A stretch of DNA of 63,365 nt, counting the filler, from Intoshia linei (Eukaryota > Animalia > Orthonectida): assembly GCA_001642005.1 (NCBI GenBank). It is 7 parts of 7 records of this genome, joined end to end, with 100 filler letters (N's around TTAATTAATTAA, not from the genome) between each part and the next. Parts side by side here need not be neighbours in the genome. Positions count along the whole stretch, not along the records: positions 1 to 21,393 come from LWCA01000645.1; 6 more parts are not named here. The stretch is one strand, 5' to 3'. Of this stretch, positions 1 through 31,462 are shown piece by piece. Within the stretch, counting starts at the first letter, position 1, and each line of letters opens with the position of its first letter. The position numbers and the translations under genes were made by a program. Under the pieces are notes generated by a model. That model saw only the letters and a program-made list of their open reading frames with translations. It made no database searches and was not told the DNA's origin.

Positions 1-183
1 TTTATATTACATTTTCTTTGATAATATGAGATGTTTTACTTTGTATATTAGAATTAAATCAATAATTCTGATGTATTATTGTATGATTGAGTTATTTTTA
101 TTTATTTAATCCTTTTATATTCTTTTATTTAGATCTAATTAAGTAAACCCTGAATAATAAATATTTTTAAATTTATATTTAAA

Positions 184-1564
184 CGAGTTAGATGAAAACA
201 AATCTAATGGACCTGAAGAAAATGACACCACAAAAGAGTTAGAATCTACAATCAAATCCATGACAATTTTAAACCAAGATAAAGATGTAAATACTGAATC
301 TATTAAATCAAAAATTATTGATATACCAAGTGAAAAGTTGGAAACGGCAGATATTGATATCATAAAAGATGAGACGAATAAAATGTTGGATGTAACTGAT
401 TCAACTTTTGACATCAAAATTGAAAAAGAAAAGATTATGAAAACATGCCAGTGTTAGATGAGTTTTTATTTACATCTGAGTTTGATATAATTGATGATTC
501 TGTAAATTCAAATACGTCACATGAAACAGAAAAGGAATTTGTAAATTCTAAAATTGAGGATTCGTGCAATGTCAATACTCTTATAATGAATACACTTAGT
601 AAAATTGAAGCAATTGAAGCCATATAATTATCAACGTGCGTGAAAATTTGCAAAGACTATAATATTAATAAAATAATAAATCCCATAACAAAAGATACCA
701 ATCGGATCGTTAATGATACAGTTGATATTTTCCAAAATTTAAATACAGAATGTACAGCTAGTCCTGAAAAAAAAAACTTATAATTGTCATTGTTCGTCAG
801 CAGCTTCTGATGATAAATCATATCTTATCACGAGAAAGAATACATTATCTAATAATCCTATTTGAACTTGTTCCGTAAATTCAGAAAGTTTAATATCGAA
901 AAACAACAAAGCACGAATGAGCTTGTCGATTATCGTACTTGCTCCAGTGCAATGAATGATAAATCTTATTTTTATAACGATTAAAATTCTAATAAATTTG
1001 TCATATGTGAAAAACCAGTCCAATCTGAATTTTATAGGTATTCAAATTTATTGATTTATTTTTGAGTAGTTTTAATTTTTGATTTATAGTTGTGATTAAA
1101 ATATAACATTTAATTTAATATTTAGAACCCTACAAAAGTCTCATAATCAGCATGAATTTAATGAGTCTCGACATCCTATGTATTTAAATTTTGACGGAAA
1201 TGCACCGGTATATTCAAATCAATTAGCAAATGTCTACCTTGCTCGTCCTACAAACCCACAAGTTGAAATTAACAATAACAATGGAAATGCATATACTAAT
1301 TTATCTAGGATCATTAATGTACATAAAGCTCAACCAAATCAAGTATATACTAAAAATTCTCAATGTTACTACCAAGATAATTATTCTACACCTCAAATTC
1401 ATCAAAATAACCAATTCAACAGGTATAAAAATCCCGAAAATAGTAAATATGTTTATTCTTCCCAAAATATATCTCAAAAATTTAACCAAAATTATATCAC
1501 ATTTCCAAATGACAATGAATCTATACCTGACTTTAATTCTATATTTAACCCATCGAAAAAATGA
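184..1564 (+). pseudogene. Decayed inverted paralog of the orphan acidic/N-Q-Y-rich gene at 13392-21211
   Basis: 1-1060 aligns to the reverse complement of 21393-20250, and 1126-1570 to that of 13935-13390. The upstream acceptor AG reads AA (~181). There is a frameshift near 430, a stop at 625-627 and further disruptions. GT-AG intron at 1038-1125; the last exon is still open (1178-1564). Confidence 0.8.
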
Positions 1565-1732
1565 ATGACTAATTGTCAACACTTGTCTATAATTGTATTT
1601 TATTAAATTTATTGAAGTTGTAGCAAATTGCATATATCTAGGATAGTTAATCCTATGAAAATCGATGATAATTTAAATATATTCCAATAATTGCATATAT
1701 GATGACTGTACGTTTCATTTTGTGCAAAAGTA

Positions 1733-6500: not shown

Positions 6501-9500
6501 TCATGAGATAGGCTATAACCTAAAATTTTTAGTAGTCAAATAGGAATGGAAGTAGTGTAAAAGTCCATTTTATAAAACAGAAATTTATAATACCGTAGTT
6601 TTATATTAAATATTATTACTATACAATTAAATGTAATTTGAACTTATCAAAATTAAAATGATAGTAGCGACGGAAATAATTAATATTAACTGTTTCAAAA
6701 TTATTCAATAAGGCGCAATTCAAAGTATTACTTAAATTAAACTAAAATTTTACTAATTTCGAAATTTAATAAAGTGAAATGTATTAATAAAAAAATATTG
6801 ATTTAAAAGGTAAATTTTACAATAGAATTTTGTATATTAAAATTTAAGTAAATGTATAGGTAAGATAAATTAAATACCGTTGAAGCAGATCTGCTTATTC
6901 CCATTTTGCAATGAACTAAAACAGCACCATTATTTTTTCTAAATTAATAGTATCAAGATAAAATATAATTAATGGATTAAAAAAATAATACATTAATTTA
7001 GTGCTTTAATAGTATTTATAACATGTATAAAAACAAACCTTACATCTTCGATAAAACAAAATGTATGGTGCCATTTATCAAGGAGTGTAGAAGTTGGAAT
7101 GTCGAGCACTCTGATATTTTTATAGTTAAATTCAAATGGATAAAAATTATCAATTTCCACTGTCATATTCAGTATATGTGTGATACTAATCATATACATT
7201 ATTAATTATTGATTAAACAAAAATACTTTAATTCTTTCAATTCATGATAATTACAAGCGTTCATTTCAGTTCCAAGATATAGGTAGGGTAAAATTTGTGT
7301 AGGTGCATCTAATTGAGCCATAAGTATTATAGTTTCTTGTCTAATAAATTTTCTATAAATTTCAACGTCCTTTCCAATTTCTACCTCCAATTGTTCATCC
7401 AACTAAAGTTTTTATAGGTTAAAATTTAAACCTGTAAATTATGAACATCTTAAATGTTGGTTAAACTCTGTCATATTCGAGCCCAATTTTAGACACTAGA
7501 TTTTTAATTTACAATGTTTGTAGACAAATTAAAGCCGTCGATCAACATTTAATCACATGAGGCTAGAAATATTTTATTATATTAAAATACATATAAAAAT
7601 TTCAAATGCACCCGAGGGTTCACGTAATTCGATTTTAGAACCTTATTAGTGAAAAATGGATAAATTTTTTTCTGATCGATCCATCGCAGCTCTCTGCCGA
7701 GGCGGACTTTTTAATTTTAACACCGATTTTTCAATTTATTAAAGACAATAAGTGTATGATCTTAAAAACAATCAAAGTATAGTTACAAATAGTGATGCGA
7801 CGATTCCAAGGAATCAGAATCGACAATTGCTGTAATCGTTCTTTTTTTAGGAATCAGCATCGGTAAAATTTTAACTAATTCTCCAAAACGAAATAGAACC
7901 TTTGGTACAAATGGTGAAAAGCTAATATTTTAACATTATAATTTAAAATTATTTGTTCTGACATTAATTTAATATTAATTAATTAATTTTAAGCATTTTT
8001 ATTATGTTTCTTAGTTGTTTATTTTGTAGTTCTATAAATTCGATTATTATTGGTTATTTATCTAATCAAAAAAAATAAAACTCTCACAAATAGTATGATT
8101 CAAAAGTATTTGGAATCGCATTGGAATCGGAAGCGTTTTTTTTGAAGAATCGAAACGGAATCGGCATCGTTGAAAATTTGATAATCGTCTTATCACTACA
8201 AACCTAATAGTAACCGGTAGTTACAAACCTAATAAATCGTCATAAAAAACGTAGTTTTTTCCATCATGCATTTCGGAGGAAGGAGTAGAGCCGTGGAGAG
8301 CCAGCAGTAGGTCAGTATAGTAATGGTAGGGCTCTCTAGATTTTTTTAAAATTGAGACGTCTATACATTGTTTAATCGATCGTCTATTCAATAGACTATT
8401 GTATAGAAATTGAAAATAACAATTATAAACCGCATTGGTCATAATAATTTTGACATACTTAAGAAAGGTTCCAACATTATCTATTAATAAATTAAAATAT
8501 TAAGCCCCTAATGATTGTAGACCCGGTCCATATTGCCTTTAGCCCCCCTCAATGCCTCTGGGAAGGATTGGTTCCCAAAATTGTTTCTCCATGGACTGAT
8601 TGTCAAAAAGTGCACTTTTTTGGGATTGCTATTTATAATAATGCTCTTGATTTTAAAAACAATGACAATTTATGTTTTATAAAAATTTAGGACTTTTTTA
8701 ATTAAAAAAAAAAGGGTTGATTTGCGGCTTTGAATATGAAAATGTAAGTTTCTGAGGCTGAGATTTTCGCCAATAATAACGAATTTCAAATGATTGTCAA
8801 AATATATGCTTTTTTAAATTGTAGAGGTGATTTTTTTATAAAAAAATAAAATTTGCAATGCTACATCACGCTTGAAAAATTGTATTAGCAAGTTGATTTT
8901 TTAACACACTCGCATTACATTTTATATAAGTAATGGATGTAATGTATATATTTTTTTTTGGTCCACAGGTTTTTTCCAATACCATCGTAGGGTCCACAGC
9001 GAAAAAAGGTTCAGAATGTCTGGTCTAATATCTATGTAATCATAATACCCTGGGCCGTGAAGATCTAAGAGTGGACCCGGACCAGATGAACATTCTAGGT
9101 AACTGAATATACGTTTAAAAAAAATTTTTGTTCCTTCATCCATTGTTTTATCCAGTGGTTGCCCAACTTTTATTCGGCGTTACAGTGCCACGTGATAAAT
9201 AAAAAAATTTACCACACCTTAAAAAAAATTCCTAACACCATCTATTGATTTAGAATAGTATGGGAGATCATATGGTCTCTAGCCCATCTCCACGGCCCTG
9301 ATCAATCCTCTAAATTTATATTATGGAGCTTTTCGAAGTTTTCGAAAAATGAACTCCTTTTCCAATCTTATTGGAAAACCGGTTTTCAAATTTTCTAATA
9401 ATCAGGACTTTCAATTATGAGACTGTAATAAATATCTAAAGATGCCACGCAAATTATAAAATCAACCATAACATTAAATTCACGGTTATCATGTACAAAA

Positions 9501-12023
9501 AAATAAATAAAGTCAGACTCGTTAATAATGAACCCTAAATGTCACATTTTTGACAGATTCACTATTAAACATTTCTGTGATTACCCTTTACCTCTAAAAA
9601 ACATTTTAAGAAATGTCTGAATAATAAAGTTAATTTTATTTTAATAAATTGGTATAATTATTATACTATTATAATAATAGTAACCATAAAAATCGTTACA
9701 CTAACAATTTATATTTTGTTTTTCTCAATTTTTAAAAATTTTGAAGACTCTTAAAATGTTAAAAATATTCTCTTAAAAACCCTACAAAATTTTGGACCTA
9801 AGATTATCTTTAAAATGTTAAAAAATTGGTTGAAAGAAATATCGGTCTAAAAATCAATAATATTAAAAATTAAAAAGCATTTTTTGTAAATTCATTATAA
9901 TGAATTTGAACAATTTGAATAAAATAACGAACTTGCATAATCTTTAGTGGCGTACACAATTTTACACAAAATCATTCACTATTAAAAAAATTCATTATTG
10001 AGGGTATGCAATACACATTATTGATGAGTCTAACTGTATAAAAAAAATTTTTTTTAAATATAAATCATTTAAATTTTCATAAAATTTACTTCCATAAAAC
10101 TTATAGTGTCTAAATTGGAAACACGTAAAATTGATAAAATGAATTGGCTAAGTTTTCGTTTGTCTTCATTTTCGACTCTAAATTTTGAATACAGATATAT
10201 TTAAATTATAAATTTAATTACGAAAACAAACGCTCTTCGTGGGTACACTTGTGAGATTCAATACCCGGCATTTCGTTCCTAAAATTTAAATTAATTGTTC
10301 CATCATTGTTAATTAAACTAAATCTGAATATGTAAAGTTAATTACATGTATTATAATTATAAAATGTTTTATTTTTTATCTGATACATTTTTCCAATTTT
10401 ATGGAGTCTAACGCCTATTGTTCTCTGCAATAGTTTGTCAGCGCAAAAAAATTCCGACTACGACCAATACAATGTACAATTGTATTGAAAACTTGTATAT
10501 TTTAACTTGATACAAATGTTAATTTTTAAGTGACTTTTTCATATATTTCAAGTAATTTTTCCCAAATTTTAAAATGAGTTATTAAAAAAATCTAAAAATT
10601 GCTTTTAAACTGCGTGTGGAAATGAAAAAAGTTCTCTTGTAGTTGAATACACCATGCAACAATAATTACCATCTATTAATGCTATTCTTATCCGATGTGA
10701 TATTGGAATTATAGTAATTGAGAAAATCCGAGTTGTTTTGACTATCAATCATTAATTTCCAATTTGCTGATAACTGAGCCCTTAGTTTGTTAATTCTTGT
10801 CAAAAATGCCCTAATTATAACATAATAATTATATATTAGAGTTTCCAAAACTTTTAGCATCCATGACCCATCTAAGAATATGAATTTTTTATGGTTCCCA
10901 TAAAATTTGTTTAACAAATTTGCTATCATCCGTGTTGGGAAGCCCTGTTAAAAGTATTAAAACTTTTTAAACTTTAAACCCTTAAATTTTAAATTAAAAG
11001 TGTAATGGGGAAATGTATCAATTATGATGATTTACCACATGGCTTTAATAGTTATTGGTTTAATCAAAATATCGCGGTTATTTGTAGACATAATCAAGCA
11101 ACTAAACAGACAATTAAGATTTTTTTATAACATGATAATTCAGGCCTCATAAATAATATTTTGTAATTTGCAAAATATTATTTAACGTTAAATTTTAATT
11201 TGAAATGGTTCCATTGTCATCGTTGTATTTTACACTACACAATGAAATTTTTTGATCGCATTATTCCATTTTATAAAACTTGAAAATTGTACAATGACGT
11301 GAATGCGTTTATGAAATTAAAACATACCCTGACCCATCAACATTGACATGGACTGTCATGTTCATTGGAAATACAAGACCGATAGTTGCGACATCACAGT
11401 TTTCTTGAGACACAACGTCAAACCCCAGTAAACATGTTTGGTGTAAATCATTATTAGTGACAATCGCAACATATCGTTTATTAGTTTGTTCAGGTGGGAC
11501 GTCAAGTTCGACTAGAAAATGTATACCATCCGTATCTTTGAGCGTATCAATCATTAAATTTAAATGGTGAGTAAATTGAGTATCTAAATTAAACCATGAA
11601 TAAAAAATAAGTTAAATTCTTACCTTTCGGCAATTGTTTAGATTCAATAGTTTGGGAAACTCTTGGCAGTAATTGAGCCACACCTTTAGATACATGATAT
11701 GATGTACAACTAAATTTATAATTTGATAAAATTTTATTTAAACCTTTTCAATTTACTGATAAACCTGGAACACAGTAAAATATGGTTCAGCATATCAATC
11801 TACAAGTAAGTTTATCACTGTCAATATTTATCAACAAATAAATAAATTTTATTATTTACTAATATTTATAAGATACTATAACCTATCTCTCCGTGAGGCG
11901 TAAACAAATTTATTGTTTTGTATATTACTTTTAAATTTCTTAAGGATTTCCAATGATTAATCGAAAAATGGGTTGTAGATAAACCTAATTAATATGCCCG
12001 TATGATATAATACTGCGTTCCAT
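3510..12023 (-). CDS. SSH: Protein phosphatase Slingshot homolog (cofilin dual-specificity phosphatase), multi-exon
   Basis: N-terminal SSH motifs CLLGFD..TIGLVFP..VDGSG (11330-11440), KPITIKAMW and YYNSNITSDKNSINRW. Also QLDAPTQILPYLYLGTEMNACN (7230-7330), catalytic VHCKMGISRSAST (~6880-6920) and IQPNKGFNKQLQIYEGML. The 5' and 3' ends are uncertain. Confidence 0.9.
3713..4333 (+). mobile_element. Non-autonomous hAT-type MITE (family also at 37706-38260, ~51755-52419 and part at ~42915-42985)
   Basis: Termini CAGTGTTCCC...GGAAACTACTG, degenerate 8-bp TSD (gcttagtg/tcttagtc), shared internal sequence with the other copies. Confidence 0.65.
7790..8198. mobile_element. MITE with TAGTGAT termini and internal GGAATCG repeats, in an SSH intron
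   Basis: Imperfect TIRs tagtgatgcgacgatt / aatcgtcttatcacta; subterminal gaatcg repeats. No clear TSD. Confidence 0.5.
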
Positions 12024-13045: not shown

Positions 13046-13391
13046 ATCATTAAAGAAACCACAAAAATATTGTCAAAAAATAAATATTATGATTACTTAG
13101 CAAAATCGATGATTATGTGGCTCTAAGATGTATCCTTCAAGTAAATGTTCTCTGTCTTAGTGTATAATCAAAACTTGGTCAAACTTGACCAACGACATTA
13201 GTTTGACAGGAACGAAACATTTTTATAAATAAAAATATTGATAGTCCATGACAATCGTAAAATTTCCCAAATAGGAATTCCCGATTATTATCCCGATCGG
13301 AAAATTAAGATTTTTACAGAAATTTGTTACAAATTACAATTGATTTTTAATAAAATATAATTATAGACAAGAGTTGGTAATTATTATAAAT

Positions 13392-16300
13392 TTATTTATC
13401 CGGTGGATAAAATGGAGATTTGAAATCTGGAGATTTTCTATTATCTTTTGGAAATCTGAAATGACAATTTTGAAAGTTAGTAGAGATATTTTGGGAAGAA
13501 TAGCCATATTGATAATTACTTGAATTTTGATATCTGTTGAATTGGGTATTTTGATGAATGTGAGGTGCATAATAATTCTCTGAGTTGTAATGTTGAGAAG
13601 GTTGATTGTAAAATTGATTTGGATAATCTTTATTTACGTTAGCGGACCTAGATAAACTGGTATATGCATTTCGATTGTAATTCTGAAATTCAGTTTGTGG
13701 GTTTGATTGCTGAGCCAGGTAGGCATTTTGTAATTGATTCAATTTAAGCAAGTAATTTTGTTGTGAAATAAAATTCATTTGGTCTTGTTTGATTTTTTTA
13801 GCGTACATTATAGACATGTACTCTTGATTTTGCATGTTTTGATTTGGATATACCGGTGCATTTCCTTCAAAATTTGAATGCATAGGGTACCGGTACTGAT
13901 TAAATCCATTTAGATTGTGTGAATTTTGTTGTATTCTAAATATTAAATTTAATATTGTACATCCTTTACTTATATAAAAATTAACATTTGTGTTACTGTG
14001 TCTCAGAATTTAAAAAAATAAAAAAAAAAGTGAAAACAATTTCTAAGTCAGTTTTTCGAGAGCGTTGTTTTATCGCTAAATTTGATTTTCAGAATAGACT
14101 CCTTCAAATTAAAAAACCCAAATTACCTTTTTTTAAATGCGTTCTAGAATTTTAAAAAACATATTCTAGACAATTTTTAACACCATTAACAGAATCGTAA
14201 ATAAAAAAATTCGAATGACAGACACACAATCTATTAGGTTATGTCGCTTTTATTTTCACTGTTTTTTAATCACTATATGATCAAAAAAATTTAAAATAAT
14301 TTGAAATTAACAGTGCTTTTGGATAAAATATTTAATGATGCATCAGATAAAAGTGTAAATTATTAATATACACAAATATTTATTATGAATTTAGACAAAA
14401 AACTTCTGTGATTTTGAAGAACATATTCGCCATATTCTACTATATGAGTATAATAATTCTCATTCTGCTGTTAAAACAACTCAAAAGATATGTAGTGTGT
14501 ATGGCCAAGATGTCATACAACAAAGAAAAACATAAAAGTTCACCAAGTTCATTAAAAAAAATTATAGCTTAAGGGATGTCCAACGTTCCGGTAGACCTCT
14601 CGTGGGTGATATTGACTCAATAAAAGAAGCATTGAACATCTCTCCTATTAAAACATGTAGATCGCTTACTAATGTTGCTATTTGTTCAAAATCAAGTGTG
14701 TTTAATATGTTATTAAGGATGAAAAAGGTCCATAGGTCTGGTATATGGGTTCCTCACTTATTGTCAAATCAGCAAAGATTAAATAGAGTTAATATATGTT
14801 CCTCTTTATTATTTCGACTGAAGAGTGAATCATTTCGATGTAGTTCTATGTAATTCTATCTATTTCGACATAGATTTTTGTAGTATCCAAGATACAATCG
14901 TTGTTATAGATATAGTTTAGTTATCGTCATTGTTAAAATAAATAATTAATTGAAAGTTAAATGTCGAACATTACATTGGTGTCAGAAGTCTTTTTCGGAC
15001 AGCCTCAACCATTGTTGTTACCAACAGGCAATTTATCTATGGATGTGGATACTTGGCTGGAGGCGTTTGACAATTTCATCAAAATCCATTGGGATGATGT
15101 CAAGTAAGATGAGAAAAATGGCCTTATGTAGACATTACGTTGGAAAAGAAGGTGCAATACAATTAAAAACTAAAAAAAATTTGCAGACATGGTTACGGAA
15201 ATTAAGACTTGGAAAATTTACAAAATATTATTAAAAAGACAAGAGTTTCTGGAGGCTCAGAGATTCTTTTTAATAGTACTAGCGACATACTTAGTGTTTC
15301 CGAAACCTGAACTTGGAAAAAAGAGACTAGTGGTGAAATCTGAGATGCAGTTGTACATGGAGATGGCATACCTTTCGGAGGTATTTAAATGTTGCACACA
15401 ATCAACAGCCTCTCCAATATTTATGAACATCAAAGATTGAAAATGTACTCATGATCAATTTAGAAGAAAAGACAAAAAAAGATGGTTTAGTATTTTTTAT
15501 GCTTGACCAGTCTGCGTTTGATAAAAATCAAAGTGGACGTATGGTGTTGTCATTATTAGGAAATCTTAAGTCGTTTCTACCAAAGGTATTCGGAGGCTCA
15601 TATGATTTTCAGAAATATAATTGAATCTATAAAAAATGGGACAATAGATTACGAAAATGTTAATTTAGGTGCATATCGTGGAGGGGTTGCGTCCGGTTGG
15701 AGATGGACCGCCATGATTGAAACTTTACTAAATATGATTGTTGCTCGTTTAGCATTAAGAAAAGTTGAATTATTACATCTTAAGATAACTGACAATTATA
15801 TGGGCGATGATGCTCTTATAGTCCTCCAAGAACAACCGACAGTGACTTCGAAGCTTGTCAGGATCCTACACTTTTACAAAAGTTATGGATTAAAAACCCA
15901 TCCTACAAAGCAACAGGTATCAACTGTGCGTATAGAATATTTTGGGGATCTTCATTTTTCGGAAACAATGCAAGGATATGTTAGTAGAAAGGTCGATTCA
16001 GTAATTCAAAGATATTATGTAGGGATGAGTTCGTGGCTAGATCCGCGAAGTATAAATGCGCGAATAATTATGTGGATGTTTATAGTTGCTTCTTCAAAAA
16101 TAGTAGGATTAAATAGAGATAGAGTTTAGAGGATAGAGAGGAATATTAAAAGCTTTACCTGGAAAAAAATTGCTAGAACTCGCTGGAAATATAATGGTGT
16201 GCAGGCTATTTTTAAACTTAAAAATGAAAATTGCATTTTCTCAAGTTGTGAAAATCATAATTTGAATTTATTGAATTTAATTTCACCTAAAAAAGTTTTC

Positions 16301-19300
16301 GAAAAGATTTTATCATTAAATTTAGAAAACATATTTCCAAATATTGTTATATCGTTGCGCATTTTTGACATTATTGGTATTTGTAGCTTGTCGTTGTACA
16401 AAGAGATTGGTCGTCAGGAGGGCATCTAATAGCACGTCCAGTGTTCGTAAATTAACGTCCGATTTGAATCTTGGCATTTATCCAAGCTCAGTTTACAATA
16501 TTATTTCGTCTAGTCGATTCATCGAAGTTCAAAAATGAAATGCAAACCGCCCCTGACACCTGACCACAAAAAATCCAGCTTAGAATTCGCCAGAGAGAAC
16601 ATGAGCATGAATTGGAAACAAGTTTGCTTCTCGGATGAGAAAAGATGGGCCAGATGGTTATACGCATTATTAACATGACGTAAGACAAGAATTACTTTCT
16701 AAGAGGTCCAGACAAGCCAGTGGAGGAAATGTCATGGTATGGAGAGCATTCTATTCATCAGGTAAAACTAAGATTTGCTTCTTAAGCGGTAATGTGGATT
16801 CTTTAGCTTATCAGAATACTCTGATTACATACCTATTGCCTCATAGAAGAAAATTCAAAAATTTTCAACCAGACAATGCATTTGTACACACGTCAAGGTC
16901 AATCAAAGAGTATTTTAGCCATAAAAGATTTAAACTCTTGAACTGGCCATCAAAGTCTCCCGATCTGAACTCGATCGGAAATGTTTGGGGAATACTGACA
17001 CATAGTATATACGAAGGCAATATAACATATGATAGTATTCAGGACCTGAAAGATGCAATTAAAATAGCCTGGCAGTAGCTGCCACGTTCTGTCATCTTGA
17101 GTTTGTACGATTCAATGAAGAATAGGATATTTGAGGTTATTTTGAATAAAGGCAGTTCTACAAAGTATTAGTAATATTATTTTCTTCTAATATATTAAAT
17201 ATTAAAATTAATTTTATACATTTTTGACTATATTATTTAAACATGCCATCTATTATGCATTACTTATTAAACAGTTGATTTTTTGTTTTTACAGACTCTA
17301 CGTAATTTTTAATAGATATACTTTGTATATTCTGTTCTTCTTAGACTCATTTTGTGCACCTTTCTTTACTGCTCCTAGCCTATGGTTTTATTTTTCGAAA
17401 AACTTAGAACAATATATTTTTATAACACTTATTCTAAATATGAATTACATAATAAACAGAGTGTATTAATGTTTAGAATTTGCTGTCCTATTTTACTAAA
17501 TTGTTGTACATTAAAATATTATAGGGCCTACTGCTGGCTCTCCACGGCCCTAACCATTAAATGAACAATTGATCATGTGACTTGAGGCCTTCTGTTACAT
17601 GCACATCTACATCAATAAACTTGGCAATTCCTTTTTTCGGTTCTATTTTAGCTGAATTCAGCTTACGATTTTTCAGTGGTCAACAGATTTTTTTGAAAGG
17701 ATTTTCCCTACCTCCCACTTGTATTGAAAATATTTCAAAACGAATCATTTGAAGATTTGAAAGAATTCACATAAAAATATGAATTATTTTTACTATGCAT
17801 ATCATAAGATGAAGATATCAAAGCAGAATATACTACATGGACAAAAAAAAAACTTGATTTAAATAATCCAAAGCTGCAATTCTAATTAGTTTCCAAATAT
17901 TCATCAACTTTTAATTATTTTGGCAACATTGCCAATCACCACATGTGCATGTAAACGCTCCGTTAGCATTTTGAGAAGATTGAAAACCTTTTTAAGATCA
18001 ACAATGACTGCTAATCGTCTATGAGAAAAAATTTTTAATATGAACTGTAAATATAATTTTGTGTAAATAAACATAAATTTTTATTAATTTTCTATCACGT
18101 GACTTATAAAATTCAGAAAAGTAACCATTCAATATGAATTTGAAGAGAAAAAGACAAGATTTGTCGATAAATGATAAAATAAAATTGATTAAACTGTTTG
18201 AGGAAGATTCAAATCGGTCTCAAAAATATTTAGCCACCAAACACTCCATTTCAGTAGGTTTGGTAAGTAAGTTGTAAAAAATCACGAAGAAATCCTTAAT
18301 TGTAATAATTTAAATTTTAATCAGAAGAGATAACCTTGCCTAAGGAAATCTGTGAAAATTGAATCAGCGTTGTATCAGTAGTTTTAACGTCAACGGACAT
18401 TAAATATAAGTATAAGTGGCAATATATTGAAAGAAAAGGCGCTAGAAATTGAACGATTTTAAAGCATCTACTGGTTGGTTAAATTCTTTTTTAACCAGAA
18501 ATTCCATTAAATCAAAAAAAATTGTAAGAGAATCTAAATTAGTAAGCGAGTCTAAAATATAAGAATGGAAATAATTATTTTCTGAAGCTGTAGAAAAATA
18601 TAGGAATGATGAAACCGGATTATTTTTTAAATAAACTGCTTCCAGAACTTACATCTGCTCTACAAAAGTAATAGTAATCTGTTCGCAAAAAATATGAGAA
18701 TTTATCAAAGTTTATATTATTTTGATTTCTTGACAAATTTTCACAAGCCCCACTCAAATTTTATGTATGAAACTAATGTCGACTAAATATCCGGATATAA
18801 TACCGATACTAAATGTATATGGGAACATATGTTGAATCTATTCGTAGGCGATATATTGGAAAAGATCGATATCGTAAATATTACTTTTTAAAAACTTGAA
18901 AGTTACATTGAGAGTGGAACTTTGCCACGGTATGTCATAACTAGATGGAATTCAATTTATGATGTAATAAAGAAAGCAATACAAATGAAAATAGGTTCAG
19001 AATCACTTTCGTTAAATTTACAAAAAGTTAATATAATTTTAAAAAACATCAATAAATATTGATATAATTCAAAAAGATGACTCAAATATAATTCATTTGA
19101 TTAAATTATATAAAACTATTAGACTCTTGGTTAAAAGATTTACCTGGAGTGGTAGATACTGATACAATTGATAAACTAAAATAAATTTGGAATTATAGAT
19201 AGAATATAGTCACTACAAGTAATTTAGGAAAAATTTTATCTCATTTATCATTTTTCTTCCCAATTTATCAGGATATGTTCACATCCAATAAAAGTACTGA

Positions 19301-21211
19301 ATATTGTTTCAAGGGTTGGGCCCATAAAATATTACCTGAAAGTAAAATTACAATGTTCGAGGAAGAGTTTAATGAAATTAACAGTAAGCAAAGCAGCTGT
19401 AGAAAGATGCTTTTCACAACACAGAAATATTCACTCAAATGTTAGAAACAGCCTATTTGAATCAACACTGGATGATTCTTTATATATAAGATATAATTTG
19501 AAGAATATATTATAAATTATAATGTTAATATTTAATTTATTTTTGTCTGCCAAAAAATAAATAAATAATATTTTTGTTTTGTTACGAAGTGATGACACAT
19601 TTTGAAAAATAGAATTAATTTACAAAATTAATAAAAAATTACTTATACTAATGTTTGAAGGTAAACCCAATGGGTATTATTCCTAAATTTTCATTTGATT
19701 AACGACACATTATTTACTAACAAAAAGTTTAAGTATGCTGGAAAAACAGCCTTGCTGTACCGGTACAGCTGTTGCTGTTACCAGCCAACCTCGCTAATAC
19801 CAGCAATTTTACACAGCCCTGTTTATTTCTTATGTATAATGTCTTAATTAATATCGTTATTTATGAATAAAAATTTGTTTCAAATCAACTTTACTTTTTT
19901 TGAAATTAACCTTTAAATAATTATTCTACAATATAGCCCCAAAAATTGAAAGTGAAATAATAGAATTGATCAAACCTTCTACAATTACAATTTTGAAATG
20001 TATTTTTTATGATTAACTATATAATGCAATTATTGTATTCTTAAGTAGTCATTTCAAGAGGTCCCACTGTACCATAGATATTTACAATTTATTTTAAGAT
20101 TATGATTTATGAATATTTTCAGGGTGTAACAATTATTGTATTATTTTTAAGATTATAAAATCATTGTCTATAATCAATTAAAAAGTCGAGTTAGCATTTA
20201 GCTCCTATTTGTGTGAAGTACACAACAGTCAAGTAGTCACAAATATACATCAAAAATATATCAATAAATTTAAATACCTATACAAATCAAATTGGTTCAC
20301 TGGTTTTTCACATTTGATGAATTTATTAGAATTTGGTTCATTATAAAAATAAGATTTATCATTCATTGCACTGGAACAAGTACCATAATCAATATTCCCA
20401 TTAGTAGTTTGTTGTTTTGGCGGTATTACTCTTTCTGAAATTACAGAATCCGTTCGAATAGTAGTATTCGGCATTATATGATTTCTAGCATGAGGATATG
20501 ATTTATAATCAGTAGCTGCTGAAGAAAAATGACAATTTGAAATATTTTTTTCTGGACAAGTTGCACATTCTGTTGATAAATTCTGAAAAATATCAACAGC
20601 CGCATTAACAATCCGATTAGTATCTTCTGTTATCGGATATGTTACTCTATTATTTTCACTGTATTTTTCGCAAATATTTTCACACTTTGATGCTTCAATT
20701 TGTTCAAATTCAGAAAGTTCATTAATTGTAGAATTATTGATATTTGATTCATTCATGTTTGAAAATGTTTCTTTGTCCAAACATTCAATATCCTTTACGC
20801 TCTCAATTTTACCAGGTATAAGATCGAAGGAATCGTCAATTTTAGAATTTGCAAATGCTTTTTCTGTATTATGCGCCTTATTTGAATTTACAGAATCATC
20901 AATTATATCAAACTCAGATGTAAATGAAGACTCATCTAACACTGGCATGTTTTCATTATCTTCTCTTTTTTCAATTTTGAGGTCAAAAGTTGAATCAGTT
21001 ACATCCAACATTTTATTCGTCTCATCTTTTATGATATCAATATCTGCCGTTTCCAACTTTTCACTTGGTATATCAATAATTTTTGATTTAATAGATTCAG
21101 TATTTACATCTTTATCTTGGTTTAAAATTTTCATGGATTCGATTGTAGATTCCAACTCTTTTGTGGTGTTATTTTCTTCAGGTCCATTAGATTTGTTTTC
21201 ATCCAACTCAT
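13392..21211 (-). CDS. Orphan low-complexity protein: acidic exon 21211-20278 plus N/Q/Y-rich exon 13935-13392; 5' end unresolved near the gap
   Basis: Open frames 20250-21206 and 13392-13883. Splicing from GT at 20277 to AG at 13936 joins them in frame (..LYR|IQQNSHNLNGFNQYRYPMHSNF..), at the same position as the 88-nt intron in the paralog. Confidence 0.75.
14234..14838 (+). mobile_element. mariner transposon 5' fragment (degenerate)
   Basis: TA followed by a TTAGGT..TATGTCG TIR remnant. Encodes HIRHILLYEY, SVYG, RSGRP and SGIWVPHLLS (WVPHEL motif). Truncated before the catalytic D; same family as 58132-59043. Confidence 0.85.
14850..16195 (+). pseudogene. Endogenous viral element: RNA-dependent RNA polymerase of a totivirus-like dsRNA virus (Giardiavirus/Artivirus-like), frameshifted
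   Basis: RdRp motifs in order over three frames: F KPELGKKRLVV (~15303), A LDQSAFD (D at 15505), B GVASGWRWTAMIETLLN (S at 15692), C MGDD (GDD 15803-15811), D GLKTHPTKQ, E RIEYF. No introns and higher GC than flanks. Outer boundaries approximate. Confidence 0.88.
16200..16378 (+). mobile_element. hAT transposase C-terminal (dimerisation domain) fragment
   Basis: SPKKVFEKILSLNLENIFPNIVISLRIF/LTL pattern typical of the hAT dimerisation domain; no TIRs. Confidence 0.6.
16380..17507 (+). mobile_element. Tc1-family transposon, 5'-truncated and degenerate
   Basis: WKQVCFSDEKR, GGNVMVWRAF, FQPDNAFVH and WPSKSPDLNSIGNVW motifs. Stop at ~17171; possible right-end sequence to ~17507. Confidence 0.9.
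17600..18020 (+). mobile_element. Second hAT transposase C-terminal fragment
   Basis: 17890-18020 translates FPNIHQLLIILATLPITTCACKRSVSILRRLKTFLRSTMTANRL (hAT dimerisation consensus). Confidence 0.8.
18133..18665 (+). mobile_element. pogo/Tigger (CENP-B-like) transposase 5' fragment
   Basis: MNLKRKRQDLSINDKIKLIK (HTH), ISGNILKEKA, FKASTGWLNSF, NDETGLFF; contains stops and frameshifts. Confidence 0.85.
18700..19821 (+). mobile_element. Third hAT element, 3' half with right terminus
   Basis: CIWEHMLNL (CxxH-like), TRWNSIYDV, AAVERCFSQHRNIHSNVRNSL; ends in ...CACAGCCCTG (hAT-type CAGGG terminus). Confidence 0.8.
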
Positions 21212-21493
21212 CTAAATATAAATTTAAAAATATTTATTATTCAGGGTCTACTTAATTACATCTAAATAAAAGAATATAAAAGGATTAAAAAAATAAAAAT
21301 AACTCAATCATACAATAATACATCAGAATTATTGATTTTATTCTAATATACAAAGTAAAACATCTCATATTATCAAAGAAAATGTAATATAAANNNNNNN
21401 NNNNNNNNNNNNNNNNNNNNNNNNNNNNNNNNNNNNNTTAATTAATTAANNNNNNNNNNNNNNNNNNNNNNNNNNNNNNNNNNNNNNNNNNNN

Positions 21494-22070
21494 ATAATAT
21501 TTAAATTATATTAGATATATGTACTAATATTGAATATTTTCAGGTATTTTTCTCGGATGAGTCAATGCCTACTACAATGGATAATCGATATAAAAAAGTC
21601 CGTAGAAGATTATCAGATGCTTTTAGACCAGAGTTCATGGCACGAACGGTGAAATTTCCAACCAAAATTATGGTTTGGGGAGCAATTAGTGTATCTAAGC
21701 CGGCCCTATATTTGTTATAGAAGGTATAATGAACCAACATAAATATATTGACACATTAAAAAACTTTTTAAATGATCGTCCAGGTTTATTCAATACAAAT
21801 ATGCATGTTTTGCAACAGGATTTGGCTCCCTGTCATACTGCATAGTCTGTTTAATCTTTTTTTGATTCCAACCAATGAAAAGTATTACCCTGGCCCAGTA
21901 ATTCTGCAGATATAAATTCCATTAAATATTTTTGAAAGGTATTGAAGGATGAAGTACATCAAGTTCATATTTTGTATAAACAAAAATTAATTGACCGGAC
22001 AATATGGGTTTGGAATAATTCGGACAAAATTCAATTATTATGCAAAAACTTAATAATTGTATATCAGCAG
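21494..22070 (+). mobile_element. Degenerate Tc1-family transposase fragment
   Basis: FFSDES, TVKFPTKIMVWGAIS, LQQDLAPCHTA and LPWPSNSADINS motifs, with stops. Confidence 0.8.
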
Positions 22071-22350
22071 TCGCCAACTTAAGATTCTAAATTTCACAAC
22101 CAGACATTTTAAATCATTTCCCAGGCATATTATTAAAACTATATAAGTTTATATTTTAAAAATGATTTAATTTTTCATCTTAAAACCAATCATGTTTAGA
22201 AAAAACAATCCAAATACAAATTACATGTAAAACAATTTCAGAAAATCTATTTAAGAGTAAACTTAAATAATCTATGTGAACCCAAATCTGAATTTTCAAT
22301 AGAACGGTAAGTTGTGAGTCACAACTTGTGACTAATAATTTATTATTTAC

Positions 22351-24626
22351 TTTGCCAGAAGTTCTTATTCCTTTGCAGATGCATCCAAATACAATAAGCC
22401 AAGCCAATGTTAAACACAGCAACAGGTCCCACCTGATAATTCCCATATTATTTATACTGTTAGATAAATGCAATACGTTTTTTCTAAAAATTAAAAAAAT
22501 GGGTAAATTTTAAATAGACTATACGTCCAATATTCTTCTGATGGGCTCACAGTTCCATTTCTACAAGCAATAGTAGACTCTAGAAAATCACACTTTGACC
22601 ATGGAAGTTGGCTTGCAAATGATGAGAATAAATATCTAAATACCCATGCAAGTATCACGTTGTAATATATCCCAACAATAAATCCAACTGTCAATCCGGC
22701 CAAGCCAATCCCTAGAATATCCTTGTTATACATACATTACGATAAATTATAAAAAATTATTCTTATTTATTTAAATTTATTTAACATAAATTACATTGCT
22801 TGGAACTTCGTTTACCAATCTCATGTCTGTAACTTATAAACACATTTCAGGTGAATTTTACCAATATTCAAAAGGATTGTAATAAATTTAAAAATAATAA
22901 TAAAAAAGTTGTATTACTTTTAGTAATCGTTGTTGTAGTTTCAATTTAAATTTTAAACAAAATGTTTTGAAAATGATAATTTGAAATTTAAAAATTGCGT
23001 AGCAATGAAAAAATTCCGAAGGAATGAATTATATAGATTTCACCCATATTTCTTTATTAGAAATTTGTAAACGTTCAATGTACATTTTTTTTGAAATTGT
23101 AAGATTATTTTACAATTTTAATTTTTATTTTAATCGAAATATTTCAAAAATATTGATTGATAATATATTAAAAATTATTTTTCATCCGGAATGCGTAGAT
23201 TTCTCGTATTTACCTTTTGTATTTATAGTAACTGTGTGTGTTAACAGGATTCAACTGTACCACCTGTAAATTTTTTAAAATTCTAGGGCTGTTTTTATTG
23301 AAAAAAGAAGGGTAATTTAGGGTTTTGTCCCTGAAGATATAATTTTTTTAAATCCTTCAACTCTTTTGATTTTCAAAAAGAGGGACAATTGGTTATTGAA
23401 ATAAACAGTAACACACACACAAACAAATATTGCATAGCATATTATATAAGTAAGGATTTTTATCATATTATATTTGTAATTTTGTCTAGTCATATCGTTT
23501 TTGTGACCACGAGAAATTTTATAGTAAATTATTGTTCGCGGTGAAGAAATTATGCATCAAATATATAATAAACACCTAAATTTATGAATATATTACATAA
23601 TATGTAATATTATATATATTTAAGAAATTTACGCGAAATGTTTACCAATGAGAAGCATTGCGATAGACTTTATCAATTTTACAAAAAATTTTTCGATTGA
23701 AAAGAGTGAAAAGATTGGGGAAAGCTTGTCTAGAACACTTATTGAGGCTTTTTCAAGTTTTTATTGGATATATTTAGTTTTATATAACACTCTTTATTAT
23801 CTTATCATTTCAAAAAAGGTAATTTGGGATTTGATAATCGAAAGTGTCAATTTCTGAGAATCTAATTGACGATAAAACATTATTCTTAAAAATCTGTATT
23901 AGAAATTGAGTTTTTTGAAATTCATGGACTCTTACATTTTTAACTAAACTGTAACACATATGGACATTAATTTTTATACAAATATATACAATGTAAGTAA
24001 AGAATTATAATAATTATTAAATTTAACATGACAGTGATAAAACCTTTTAATATTGGGAAAATATTCCACATACCAAATGCACCTTCCTTTAACAATTGAC
24101 CCATTGATACTTCCAAAAAAAATAATGGTACTCCAGCAGTAATTACACATAAAAAGTATGGTATTAGAAATGCACCTACATAAGTATAATATATGATATA
24201 TTTTAGATATGAAATAAAGATGATAAACAACATAAAAAAAGTAAAAATTACCTCCTCCATGCTTATGACACAAATAAGGAAACCTATAAAAATTCAAATG
24301 AAAAATGAGAAAAGAACCAGCAAACCTAGATACGTGTATTACAAATATAAGTAATTGAATGGTTAATAAAATAAATTATCAATTTCAAAAATCTAATGGG
24401 TCTGCATCTTATTACACCATAGAAACGTAACTAAAAATACCTTGTCTAGATTCATGATAAATTGTTAAATTAATCTTAAAATAAAAATATTAATTCAATA
24501 ATAAAATGACCTCCAAACATTACCAAATCCCACCGAAAATCCGACACAAGCAAATAAAAAATCAAACCGACTATTCCATTTATCTCGTACATTGAACGTT
24601 TTCTTATTCACGGTATTAGTATACAT
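22351..24626 (-). CDS. SLC6 sodium:neurotransmitter symporter, paralog A (only about TM1-TM5 visible)
   Basis: [56 protein letters not shown]; [14 protein letters not shown]; [19 protein letters not shown]. Confidence 0.85.
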
Positions 24627-25037
24627 AAGCGTTATTTTCAGTTTATTTACACATTACTTTCTACTACATTATGCAGATTATTAGAGCGAAAAACATATAC
24701 CCGATATGCATGAAAAATATGAATATTTAGATTATCGAGAGACTGTTTTCATTAAATTATTTAATCAAGGTGTAAGTAAATCAAGGTTGTTATATCTAGT
24801 TAGTAAACAGCCTTTCAGTCAATGTTACGACATCTGAGATTACGTCTGAGAAAATAAAAAGTTTTTGTAGTTATGAAACCAGATGTAATATCTTTATTAA
24901 ACTAAAGAGTTGTTATAAGGGGTTTAAGATAATGTTTTTAAAAAACTTTTACATTTAACATCGTGAAAATTGATATCCATAAAATATTTATTTATAATAT
25001 TAATACAATAAAAATAGTATTAGTATTTAGTTGATGG

Positions 25038-28000
25038 TTATTCAGATCTAAAGGCTGGGTTTTGAGTAATTTTGAATATTGGTTTGGATAAAGTTTTCAA
25101 TCTCTATAAAGTAATGATTAATATGCATTAAATTTTAATTATTGAAATTTACTCTTAATAATGGTCCATTTTCTTTTACAATTTTGTAAATCATAAAAAT
25201 TGGAATTATCAACACAGATAATATTCCAAATGTCCATCCAGTTATTATTGACCAATCTGGATATTCTTTATTTGCATATTTTAAATTTTCTATCCCAATC
25301 ATGCACAAAATTAAAAGTATCTAATATTCAAATAAATACATACGAATAAAATTATAATCATTGATATCAATTGATACATTACAATAATACAGACCGGATC
25401 ATATGTTTTGAGCACTTAAATAAATTTTCTATAACTTTATAAAAAGTTGATTCCCACAAATTTTTTTAATACTACATTGTATTACGATTGCATGTATGAT
25501 AGGGAGTTACTAACTAAAATTCCACTATGCGTGTGGTAACATTTGAAATTTGTTAGCATTTCTATATTTTACACGCAGTGTTAAAAATGATTTTAAAATT
25601 CAAAATTTTTTCATATTTCCCTCCTGAATAACGTGTATAATAATATATGTATTACAATAGAAAAAAGCGGTGATAAAAACATTAAACAAGCTTTCATGTA
25701 GAATGTGATAATCTTTGTGAAGCAATTTGACTTATAGCCAATCATACTTTCTATTTTTTCGAAATATTTATTAACACCTAAATTTGTTTAAATGATAAAA
25801 ATAATTATAATTACCATATACGTTTATACCAATTATTTCGCATAAAGCTATAAAAATGCACATTTTACTGCCTAGATAATGATCCAAAAATTGAAAAATA
25901 TACATTCCCCCCTAATATATTATTTAGATAAATGTATTAATATTTTTATATTTAATTACATTTATTTACATATATATGTTATTATTTAATAAGATAAATT
26001 TACTTCAGTCACCATTGATATTCCGGTAATATACTGAATAAAACAACAAATAGCAGTAATTATTATTCGCCTTTTTCCAGCGGTTTTTATAATGTTTGAA
26101 TCACATATAGCTGTTACAAAACCTTCTACTCCAACAAACTAAAAGTAACTAAAAAACTACAAAAAAATTCAAATATTTTTACTAATACAATTATATTATT
26201 TAACAATCTAAATCCAACTAATGAACAATGTTTACAATGAATTAATATAGCATACAATACACTGTATGTTACATTACTGTTGTATGTACTATGTAAAAAA
26301 AATTATGAAATGATAGTTTCAGGATATTAATACTTTTAAACGAATATTAAAGATAGCCTGAGAAGTAGGGTGTCACATCAAATATCAAAAATGAGACTGA
26401 AACTCAGATTTTTCTATTTCCAATATATATTGTTGTACATTGTCGCTTAATTATTTTTTGATAAAATATTATTGATGAAATACATTAGTTGGTTGATAAA
26501 TAACGTTGCAGATCTGTAAAATTTACATTTCTGAGGTTGACATTTTTTGTACTATTTAACTGTAATAATCTTTCTCAGAATTATTTTTATAAATTCTGCC
26601 ATCTTATTTAATTGTTTTTTTGATAGTAAAGATGTTACGTTATGAGGTTGATTTTTTCTGTATATTGACTGGAAAACTGTATTAGTCATAATTTTTAAAT
26701 TTCTGGGATTCTAAGTTTTTAAAATAAATTACTATGAATGAATATAAATTGATTTGTTTGTCTGTGTGTGTATTATCGTTTATTTTAATAATTACGAATC
26801 TTAGAATTTTATTAATATGTATTTTTATTATTATTTTTATTATTTATTTTATTATAATTAAAATTTCAACCTCCTAAACTCATATTTTACCGGTCAAAAA
26901 CCCCAATTATCTTTTCTTTTGAAAATCGAACGAATTCGAGAATTTAAAAAAATATATCTTAAGGGCCAAAACCCCAAATTACCCTTCTTTTTTTAATGAA
27001 AACAGCCCTAGAATTAAAAAAAATTACAGGTGGTACAGTTGTATCTTGTTAACAAACACAAAAAATTTCAATCCAAATAAATGATGACTTCCCGGTCAAA
27101 AAAAGCACTTTAGTATTCATATATATTTTTTTCGAAATATTTTATTAAAAAAAAAAATGTGAAATAATTAACGGTCCAAAAATTAAAAAAAAAATTATTC
27201 TGATATAGTTTATTCCAGTTGATATAAATACCAAATTGCAACCCCAGAAATCTACGCATTCCCGATGAAAAATAATTTTTAATATATTATCAACCAATAT
27301 TTTTCAAATATTTCGAATTGACAATGTTATTATGATATTTATTATTATGATTATTAAATGTAAAATAAAAATTGAAAATGTAAATATTGATCCTATAATT
27401 TCAAAAAAAAAATGTGGATTTACTATTTTGTCTTTATTTTTAAGATTATACACTCGTTATCTCTAATAAATGGGATCATAAAATTTTTAAAATTCTATAC
27501 AGAAATGTTAGCCAAATAAAATTAAATGGAAATTATTCATTTTAAATTAAAAGGTAAAGTGGAATTCAGTTTAGGAATGACTTCTTTACATGATTGTTAA
27601 TAATGAGTAGCATTTTTAATTAACATTTTATTATTGAATTTATTTTTTTGGTAGAATTAGATAAGTCCGCCGTCGGCAGAGCTAAATGTTGTTTGTACGT
27701 AGTATAAAACACCCAAGCTAGTATTTTATATAAATAATAATTAAATCAATGTACCTGGCTATCTAATCCCAATAAAAACATCATAAAAAAGAATACAGCA
27801 GACCATAGGCTGGCGTATGGTAAGTTTAATATTGCACGTGGATAAACAATAAATGTCAAACCAGGACCTAAAAATTTTTTATTAAAATATATTCAATAGA
27901 TAAATAATGTTTGAATTAAGCACATTAATCACAATAATATCAATATACATGTAATACTAACAATTAAAACATTTTTAAACTTCAAATTCAAAGTTTTTGG

Positions 28001-31000: not shown

Positions 31001-31462
31001 TATAATTAATTTCAATAAATAAACCTCCTCCGTGTTTATGACATAAATAAGGAAATCTAAATATATTTAATTCAATTTAAAATTTAAAGACAATATATAT
31101 TTTCCCTCGTTCGTACTCAACACCAACAGGTTTCAATGCAGAACTCTGACATGTACGATATAAAATGTATATAGTACACTAGAATGTAACCTTTTAAAAA
31201 AATAATCGAATTATCTGGCCGTTTTGTACTAATGTCCTATATTTATATCGTAAAAATCAAGGCGTTGAGAACTAAATAGTAATGTTTCTAAGCTACTTAT
31301 GAAGCCCTAATGTATTCAATAAGTGAACAATTACCTCCAGATATTACCAAATCCGACAGAAAACCCGACACATGCAAACAAGAAATCGAATTTGGTCGCC
31401 CAAACATCTCGTGCAGAAATCTGATTTGACTCTTTCTTTAGGATAAATGTATCGTTTTCCAT
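25038..31462 (-). CDS. SLC6 sodium:neurotransmitter symporter, paralog B (apparently complete, amino-acid/GABA-type TM1)
   Basis: ATG at 31462. Motifs [74 protein letters not shown] and YPDW...GW. Stop at 25038-25040. Confidence 0.92.
26740..27320 (+). repeat. Dispersed Helitron-like non-autonomous repeat (copies at ~23140-23450, 29710-29940, 44590-44990, 56670-57305)
   Basis: Shared core agggccaaaacccc..aaattacc..aaaacagcccta..acaggtggtacagttg, a (TG)n tract near the 5' end and a ..ggtcaaaaaagca.tttagta 3' motif. No TIR. Class is inferred. Confidence 0.55.

What the first reader, a model, noticed from the sequence alone, without database searches (positions are those of the whole stretch)
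13936..20277. Intronic single-strand 'parasite archive': seven co-oriented transposon and virus fragments, all antisense to the host gene
Seen: the intron holds mariner 5' part, dsRNA-virus RdRp, hAT C-terminus, Tc1, hAT C-terminus, pogo/Tigger 5' part and hAT 3' half, packed almost end to end. All seven read on the + strand while the host gene is on the - strand, and most junctions cut mid-ORF with no TIR or TSD. If orientations were independent, seven agreeing has probability (1/2)^6, about 1.6%. Other introns here carry mostly non-coding MITEs, not transposase sequence. Known: unistrand piRNA clusters (Drosophila flamenco, EVE-rich Aedes clusters) have this architecture. Inference: host transcription could yield a 6.3-kb antisense RNA against several transposon families plus a virus, i.e. 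a heritable small-RNA memory locus embedded in a protein-coding gene.
Basis: partly seen in the sequence, partly recalled or inferred. Interest (0 to 1): 0.9.

Follow-up and report, generated by a model that had tools for sequence, protein, structure and literature searches.

The report
One-way transposon-virus nest in an intron
A 6.3-kb intron that is spliced out of a gene of a tiny marine parasite holds at least seven broken transposon and RNA-virus pieces that all face against the gene, likely because same-direction insertions were weeded out, though it could also be a source of silencing small RNAs, which is untested.

Summary
The structure is real; the memory function is unproven. The DNA is from the orthonectid Intoshia linei. 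Contigs from three runs join 20278 to 13935, so the GT-AG intron 13936-20277 is spliced. An inverted pseudogene copy has the same intron at 88 nt, so about 6.25 kb were added later. Tools support six of the seven named pieces, all on +; the first 'hAT' piece rests on an eye match only. Some ends survive (mariner 5' end, LTR start, hAT-like 3' end), which points to DNA insertions trimmed in place. Six independent events all antisense: 1.6% without bias, 12-26% at 70-80% bias. Best reading (0.55): nested insertions filtered by selection against sense copies. Rival (0.28): an intronic small-RNA source. The scan noted similar one-way mosaics in two other animal genomes.

The parts
20278..21211 (-). 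Host gene, second-last exon (acidic, low-complexity; no Pfam family)
   Evidence: Open frame; covered by contigs that carry the splice join; upstream acceptor at 21211 inferred from sequence
13936..20277 (-). GT-AG intron, 6,342 nt, grown from an intron of about 90 nt
   Evidence: Join 20278/13935 in X3, X4, X6; both ends align to the 88-nt intron of the paralog
13368..13935 (-). Host gene last exon (Q/N/Y-rich tail, stop at 13392-13394); lower end approximate
   Evidence: length inferred from X6 record 32
13967..14180 (.). Non-coding repeat (MITE-like), about 70% alike to copies at 4648-4798 and 23806-23984
   Evidence: blastn
14232..14835 (+). Mariner 5' part with TA and 5' terminus, cut before the catalytic domain
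   Evidence: HTH_48, Mos1; terminal motif shared with the mariner near 58147; a 1,725-nt contig of X4 follows it to 14835 and goes on as mariner
14839..14975 (+).
   Evidence: Sequence; multi-copy in X1 and X4; no second LTR in the window
14977..14988 (+). 12-nt primer binding site, identical to the tRNA-Leu site of Steamer elements
   Evidence: PMC8905726 passage
14991..15265 (+). Broken gag N-terminal piece, running straight into the RdRp; junction about 15236-15270
   Evidence: Atlas lead 0.89, gag-like families, lead only; no Pfam hit; single-copy contig starts at 15236; RdRp homology starts at about 15273
15270..16200 (+). Endogenous toti-like dsRNA virus RdRp fragment, broken by frameshifts and a stop, single copy
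   Evidence: RdRP_4 E 1.4e-16; 130 hits, about 30% identity to viral RdRps; tblastn in three frames; one 1,082-nt contig 15236-16316 in X1
16200..16385 (+). Piece read by eye as a hAT C-terminus; not confirmed
   Evidence: Negative; weak pairwise match E 0.046 to the second hAT
16390..17508 (+). Tc3/Tc1-like transposase lacking its 5' start (stop 17169-17171) with 3' non-coding part; right end inferred
   Evidence: HTH_Tnp_Tc3_2_like and DDE_3; Sleeping Beauty
17522..17552 (.). 31-nt palindromic element end, hAT-like by recall; related copy at 8286-8311
   Evidence: contigs of three runs part from the window at 17552
17560..18030 (+). hAT C-terminal piece; left end approximate
   Evidence: Dimer_Tnp_hAT E 8.7e-7; 19 related loci; 92% to the end of a 3,577-nt contig of X6
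18134..18690 (+). pogo/Tigger 5' part, cut just after the first catalytic motif
   Evidence: CENP-B_N E 0.001, HTH_Tnp_Tc5 E 1e-4
18690..18763 (+). Short high-copy piece; hAT-like C-terminal motif by eye only
   Evidence: 7 contigs overlap here in X1; not tested by profile
18763..19821 (+). hAT (hobo/Hermes-like) 3' half, stop at 19513-19515, ending in a TIR-like word at 19814-19821
   Evidence: Dimer_Tnp_hAT, Hermes; other copies go on upstream of 18763; terminal word (TIR likeness recalled)
20085..20190 (.). Non-coding repeat (MITE-like) with copies near 7724, 33525 and 48002
   Evidence: blastn
1..1629 (+). Inverted pseudogene copy of the host gene; same intron is 88 nt (1038-1125)
   Evidence: 95% over the first 563 nt, about 76% beyond, with frameshift and stops

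Best explanation
This spliced intron holds a nest of broken transposon and virus pieces that all face against the host gene, likely built by serial DNA insertions and deletions and likely kept one-way because same-direction insertions damaged the host mRNA and were lost. Shown: the intron is spliced, it was about 90 nt in the duplicate gene, and the pieces are co-oriented. Inferred order: repeats and a mariner entered the short intron; a gypsy-type provirus integrated into the mariner, carrying a toti-like RdRp that its reverse transcriptase had picked up by template switching, so these two share a direction by construction; hAT, Tc3-like and pogo elements then landed in this tolerated space; deletions removed one or both ends of each. 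Sense copies would place the elements' own poly(A) signals in the pre-mRNA. Antisense RNA is made as a by-product; any small-RNA output would be secondary.
For: Splice join in 3 of 4 runs and an 88-nt paralog intron. DNA-level ends survive: mariner 5' terminus with TA, complete 5' LTR start where the mariner breaks off, TIR-like word 300 nt past the last hAT stop; no poly(A) tracts follow the 3' pieces (sequence). Poly(A) hexamers number 34 on the elements' strand against 24 +/- 4.4 expected, and 18 against 19 on the host strand. Intronic repeats are generally antisense-biased, which is attributed to selection against poly(A) signals (PMC1391917 passages; PMC3088655 passages). With a 70-80% bias six events agree 12-26% of the time, before counting how many introns the scan read. 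Virus integrations next to gypsy elements are attributed to template switching (PMC5497376 passage). The copy holding the block is the intact one; the duplicate with the short intron is broken.
Against: In mammals DNA transposons are the least orientation-biased class, and five of the six events are DNA transposons; at 50-60% bias the chance is 1.6-4.7%. The hexamer excess is only about 2.3 SD, and the host strand shows no depletion. Several pieces lack both ends, which needs two deletions each. No other intron tested in the window holds coding transposon pieces, so this intron is unusual locally. A second RdRp piece of the species is also fused to a transposase piece in its gene model (P0002), as expected of cluster-type loci, though gene models can only join co-oriented pieces. 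The genome-wide bias could not be measured.
Confidence: 0.55

Rival explanations
1. The intron is a one-strand small-RNA source (piRNA or endo-siRNA). Host transcription gives antisense RNA to mariner, gypsy, Tc3-like, pogo, hAT and a toti-like virus, and antisense pieces were kept because they silence these parasites.
For: All 7 supported pieces are antisense. A virus piece lies inside, as in Aedes clusters (PMC5497376; bioRxiv 10.1101/2022.08.22.504762). Pieces are about 90-97% alike to other copies, several found as contigs in the runs that hold the spliced transcript (table 8), so guides would match live families. I. linei has 3 PAZ-PIWI proteins and 1 Dicer (PMC7943196 Fig. 7 source data 1). 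DNA transposons are rarely this biased.
Against: The block is spliced out, while the Drosophila work ties piRNA production to antisense pieces in exported, cytoplasmic transcripts (PMC13226689 passages). The block is 5.6 kb; flam-syntenic candidates are 227-1,085 kb and their bias is driven by gypsy alone (PMC10643416 passages). No eukaryotic RdRP is listed for the species. Whether any Argonaute is of the Piwi clade is unknown.
Confidence: 0.28
2. Most of the block came in at once as a chimeric cDNA: the gypsy reverse transcriptase switched between co-packaged sense RNAs (virus, hAT, Tc3-like, pogo), which makes every piece co-oriented automatically.
For: The run starts with LTR, primer site and gag and passes with no terminus into the RdRp. 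Pieces have similar divergence from other copies, about 3-10%. Several are short internal or C-terminal pieces.
Against: No 3' LTR in the window: best score 29 against 26-46 in 20 shuffles. The mariner lies outside the LTR yet is co-oriented. The last hAT keeps about 300 nt past its stop up to a TIR-like end. No poly(A) tracts.
Confidence: 0.12
3. The mosaic is partly a misassembly of collapsed repeats.
For: No listed contig spans the block, the contig ends in a duplicated gene at both ends, and most inner junctions were not seen bridged in the rows shown (399 pieces not shown). X1 may be the source sample.
Against: One X1 contig spans 15236-16316 at depth 14, like the exon (12.6), and another bridges the donor site (19890-20370). 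A contig of the second study (X3, 15678-16143) holds the RdRp piece with three alleles shared with X1. A misassembly would not favour one strand.
Confidence: 0.05

Closest known systems
flamenco and flam-like unistrand piRNA clusters of Drosophila (PMC10643416; passages read)
   Same: Transposon fragments packed on one strand, antisense to the direction of transcription.
   Different: Those are large loci (227-1,085 kb for the flam-syntenic candidates cited) whose bias is driven by gypsy elements and whose piRNAs are shown. This is 5.6 kb, mostly DNA transposons, inside a spliced intron, with no small-RNA data.
Genic piRNA sources: Tirant antisense insertions in 3' UTRs (PMC13226689) and read-through, nrEVE-rich core clusters of mosquitoes (bioRxiv 10.1101/2022.08.22.504762); passages read
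   Same: Host-gene transcription supplies the antisense RNA; virus pieces are included in mosquitoes.
   Different: Those sequences are exonic or downstream of the gene and exported; here they are intronic and removed by splicing.
Non-retroviral endogenous viral elements beside Ty3/gypsy elements in Aedes (PMC5497376; passages read)
   Same: A broken RNA-virus gene lies next to a gypsy-type element, compatible with template switching.
   Different: Host is an orthonectid, the virus is toti-like, and the junction is direct: LTR, primer site, gag, RdRp. Viral-type RdRp genes in the I. linei proteome were already noted as probable horizontal transfers (PMC6396948, passage read), without genomic context in that passage.
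Antisense bias of intronic repeats in mammals (PMC1391917, PMC3088655; passages read)
   Same: Repeats in transcribed regions face against the gene, which is attributed to selection against poly(A) and splice signals.
   Different: [quoted passage not shown]
Steamer-like Ty3/gypsy LTR elements of bivalves (PMC8905726; passage read)
   Same: Short TG...CA LTR followed by the same 12-nt tRNA-Leu primer site.
   Different: LTR is 137 nt against 153-219; there is one spacer base before the primer site; only the 5' end survives, so clade membership was not tested.

Membership tests
Unistrand (flam-like) piRNA cluster | Transposon fragments strongly biased to the strand antisense to transcription | tested here: met
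   7 of 7 supported pieces on +, host on -; 0 of 30 minus-strand chunks hit a transposon or virus family
Unistrand (flam-like) piRNA cluster | Produces abundant one-strand piRNAs | not testable with these tools
   Only contigs were available
Unistrand (flam-like) piRNA cluster | Large locus enriched in gypsy elements | tested here: not met
   5.6 kb, about 0.4 kb gypsy-type, mostly DNA transposons; compare PMC10643416
Unistrand (flam-like) piRNA cluster | Host has Piwi-clade Argonautes | tested here: inconclusive
   3 PAZ-PIWI proteins listed, clade not given; no I. linei label found in the alignment file; supplement of PMC12147562 could not be read
Genic (3' UTR or read-through) piRNA source | Antisense pieces lie in the mature, exported transcript | tested here: not met
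   Block is spliced out in contigs of three runs; a minor intron-retaining or alternatively ended form is not excluded
Non-retroviral endogenous viral element (toti-like) | Homology to an RNA-virus gene | tested here: met
   RdRP_4 E 1.4e-16; named relatives are toti-like viruses
Non-retroviral endogenous viral element (toti-like) | Integrated in chromosomal DNA | tested here: met
   Single contig 15236-16316 in run X1 (DNA by guess) runs from the RdRp into non-viral sequence; frame broken
Ty3/gypsy LTR retrotransposon remnant | TG...CA LTR followed by a tRNA primer site | tested here: met
   14839-14975 and 14977-14988
Ty3/gypsy LTR retrotransposon remnant | gag-pol with RT and integrase, second LTR | tested here: inconclusive
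   gag is an Atlas lead at 0.89 only; pol and 3' LTR absent, so the element is truncated and its clade rests on the primer site
Single LTR-mediated chimeric retrocopy covering the block | Payload enclosed by two LTRs and made of mRNA-bounded pieces | tested here: not met
   No 3' LTR; DNA termini kept

The most novel reading that the evidence does not exclude
An orthonectid parasite runs a compact, intron-borne small-RNA memory: the excised intron of a well-transcribed gene is processed into antisense guides against five DNA-transposon lineages, a gypsy element and its own toti-like virus. That would be a piRNA or siRNA source that needs neither a dedicated cluster nor an exonic position, and antiviral EVE memory outside arthropods.
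Probability: 0.25. Interest if true: 0.8.

Novelty: new member of a known kind. Interest (0 to 1): 0.45.

Why it matters
What is shown is a clear snapshot of an RNA-virus gene fused to an LTR, primer site and gag start in a spiralian parasite, plus a dated-by-duplicate example of a 90-nt intron growing 70-fold. Three related virus pieces point to an undescribed toti-like lineage that infected orthonectids. The locus also makes an open question testable: can a spliced intron act as a transposon trap? Its single-copy RdRp stretch and unique junctions allow unambiguous small-RNA mapping. If reads are found, it extends the trap model from exons to introns; if not, it shows that one-way mosaics can arise without silencing function, a caution for calling clusters from layout alone.

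Tried and rejected
No whole genome was held, so the genome-wide orientation test and the Argonaute search could not be run. Run search: no RNA holder listed, 6 rows, 2 studies; this is no evidence on expression. X4 and X6 show no cover over the RdRp stretch, and X3 shows a contig at depth 5 against 171 on the exon; contigs cannot give strand or level, so this was not used for or against. Homolog searches among longer proteins found nothing for the Tc3-like ORF or the host exon, so the host gene is unnamed. No RdRp relative in viral contigs. No Rfam family in 14050-20277, no tRNA in the window. No second LTR. The left and right non-coding repeats are not two ends of one element, so a Pack-type element was rejected. 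No inverted-repeat pair that would close any element inside the block. The first hAT piece failed four tests; the local profile came from one hAT subgroup (14 segments from loci), so a miss is weak. Splice-like motifs are equal on both strands. Literature searches found no paper on small RNAs or the Piwi clade of Intoshia or on this locus; the library lacks most subscription papers. The supplement of PMC12147562 could not be read and may hold the Piwi count; 7 supplements of PMC6396948 did not name the species. The RdRp tree is the quick version; the careful search did not finish, and only 64 rows were used.
Full report
Source. The RdRp frame finds a named gene model of the orthonectid Intoshia linei at 99% identity on a 21,393-nt contig, the distance from base 1 to the first gap of the window. 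That gene model (P0001) is stitched from the gag, RdRp and Tc3-like pieces described below, so it is an annotation artefact rather than a gene.

The intron is real. Laying four runs on 14100-20900 showed contigs in X3, X4 and X6 (one study, three samples) that stop at 20278 and continue with 30 letters equal to window 13906-13935. The ends are GT-AG and the join keeps the frame. An inverted copy of the gene at 1-1629 has a frameshift and stops and carries the same intron at 88 nt, whose two ends align to the ends of the long intron. About 6.25 kb therefore entered a short intron of the intact copy after the duplication (inference).

Contents. On the + strand: mariner 14232-14835 (HTH_48 E 4.7e-13, Mos1 E 1e-6); RdRp about 15270-16200 (RdRP_4 E 1.4e-16; three frames by tblastn); Tc3/Tc1-like 16390-17171; hAT to 18030; pogo from 18134; hAT 3' half 18763-19515. 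None of 30 minus-strand chunks hit a transposon or virus family. It resembles a hAT motif by eye (recalled) and is left unconfirmed. The multi-copy gag passes into the single-copy RdRp at about 15236-15270 within one open frame. No second LTR exists in the window.

Ends. The mariner starts with TA and a terminal motif shared with the mariner near 58147. The LTR begins three bases after other mariner copies part from the window. The last hAT runs about 300 nt past its stop to a TIR-like word at 19814-19821 (TIR likeness recalled). No poly(A) tracts follow the 3' pieces. These points favour DNA insertion and later deletion over mRNA copies. No element keeps both ends.

Assembly. In X1 one contig covers 15236-16316 at depth 14, like the exon (12.6), with 8 substitutions and 1 gap; another bridges the donor site. 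X3, from a second study, holds the RdRp piece with three alleles shared with X1. Most other junctions were not seen bridged in the rows shown, and X1 may be the source sample.

Virus. A full HMMER search gave 130 hits; the closest is a second I. linei gene model (P0002), the rest are about 30% identical, and a third I. linei model (P0095) is among them. In a quick tree of 64 rows the three I. linei pieces group at SH-aLRT 98, next to a pair that includes Schistocephalus solidus toti-like virus 3 (support 90). P0002 joins a DDE_3 transposase piece to its RdRp piece. Viral-type RdRp genes in this proteome were noted before (PMC6396948, passage).

Is the orientation more than chance? Counting gag and RdRp as one event leaves six supported events. 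All six antisense has probability 1.6% with no bias, 4.7% at 60%, 12% at 70% and 26% at 80%, before allowing for the many introns a scan reads. Poly(A) hexamers are in mild excess on the elements' strand (34 against 24 +/- 4.4) and not depleted on the host strand (18 against 19). Antisense bias of intronic repeats is general in mammals, but weakest for DNA transposons (PMC1391917, PMC3088655; passages). Elsewhere in the window, coding transposon hits lie only beside gaps, so there is no internal control.

Mechanism. Best reading (0.55): a nest of serial insertions trimmed by deletions and filtered against sense copies, with the virus piece delivered by the gypsy-type element, as proposed for mosquito integrations (PMC5497376, passage). 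Splicing, the short ancestral intron and co-orientation are shown; the order of events, template switching and selection are inferred. Rival (0.28): an intronic small-RNA source. For it: complete antisense bias in a weakly biased class, a virus piece, 90-97% identity to other copies, several present in the runs that hold the spliced transcript, and 3 PAZ-PIWI proteins with 1 Dicer in the species (PMC7943196, Fig. 7 source data 1). Against it: removal by splicing, where exported exonic antisense is the shown trigger (PMC13226689, passages), small size and low gypsy share against flam-like clusters (PMC10643416, passages), no eukaryotic RdRP, and an unknown Argonaute clade. The two readings are not exclusive: a filtered nest could be co-opted. 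A single chimeric cDNA (0.12) lacks a 3' LTR and conflicts with the kept DNA ends. Misassembly (0.05) is unlikely for the bridged parts.

Known kinds. It is a member of the non-retroviral endogenous viral elements and of nested intronic transposon clusters. It looks like a unistrand piRNA cluster in layout but fails the size, content and exonic-position tests, and the defining small-RNA test could not be run. Papers were seen as search listings and passages, one section and named supplements; none was read whole. Earlier notes of this scan report one-way mosaics in two other animal genomes; they are unchecked and were not counted as support.

Verdict. Observation largely right, with one piece unconfirmed and one missed; function unproven. 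Interest 0.45; 0.8 if small RNAs are found (probability about 0.25).

Noticed in passing
window 1-1629 and 13321-21393: The 21.4-kb contig begins and ends in an inverted duplicate of the host gene, 97% alike over the outer 427 nt and about 76% further in. The 5' part of the gene (about 2.5 kb of mRNA) is missing from the window.
   Followed up: partly
window 14967-16670 (gene model P0001; limits approximate): A public gene model is stitched from gag, viral RdRp and Tc3-like pieces inside the intron, on the strand opposite to the real gene; it is likely one of the 'viral RdRp genes' counted in this proteome.
   Followed up: partly
proteins P0002 and P0095 (other contigs of the same species, 7,330 and 33,599 nt): Two more toti-like RdRp pieces that group with this one; P0002 is fused to a DDE_3 transposase piece. 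Their DNA could not be fetched.
   Followed up: partly
window 34135-34497 (-) and 34794-35820 (+): Two pieces that look by eye like the C- and N-terminal parts of one DNA-transposon type, on opposite strands; no relevant Pfam hit. If right, not every transposon patch here is one-way.
   Followed up: partly
window 58136-59044 (+): Second mariner, 67% alike to the intronic one, with a tandem duplication of its 5' part (58142-58244 and 58394-58496), between two gaps.
   Followed up: partly
window 21505-21980 (+) and 62308-63174 (+): Tc1-like piece and copia-like piece (RVT_2 weak), each beside a gap.
   Followed up: partly
window 1706-3415 (+), 6025-11611 (-), 22183-31577 (-), 37037-38730 (+), 39616-40133 (-), 46677-47211 (+), 60156-61978 (+): Neighbouring genes by Pfam: PDZ protein, Slingshot-like phosphatase, tandem sodium:neurotransmitter symporters, ATP synthase OSCP, SNAP-25, LIM protein, choline/carnitine acyltransferase. 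Their introns hold several MITE-like repeat families.
   Followed up: partly
window 17522-17552 and 8286-8311: A 31-nt palindromic element end that also occurs in a Slingshot intron; contigs of three runs part from the window exactly at its end.
   Followed up: partly
window 20390-20830 (table 5): Contigs in X1 and X4 join these places with other letters between, probably the diverged paralog, which would then be present in an RNA-type run.
   Followed up: no
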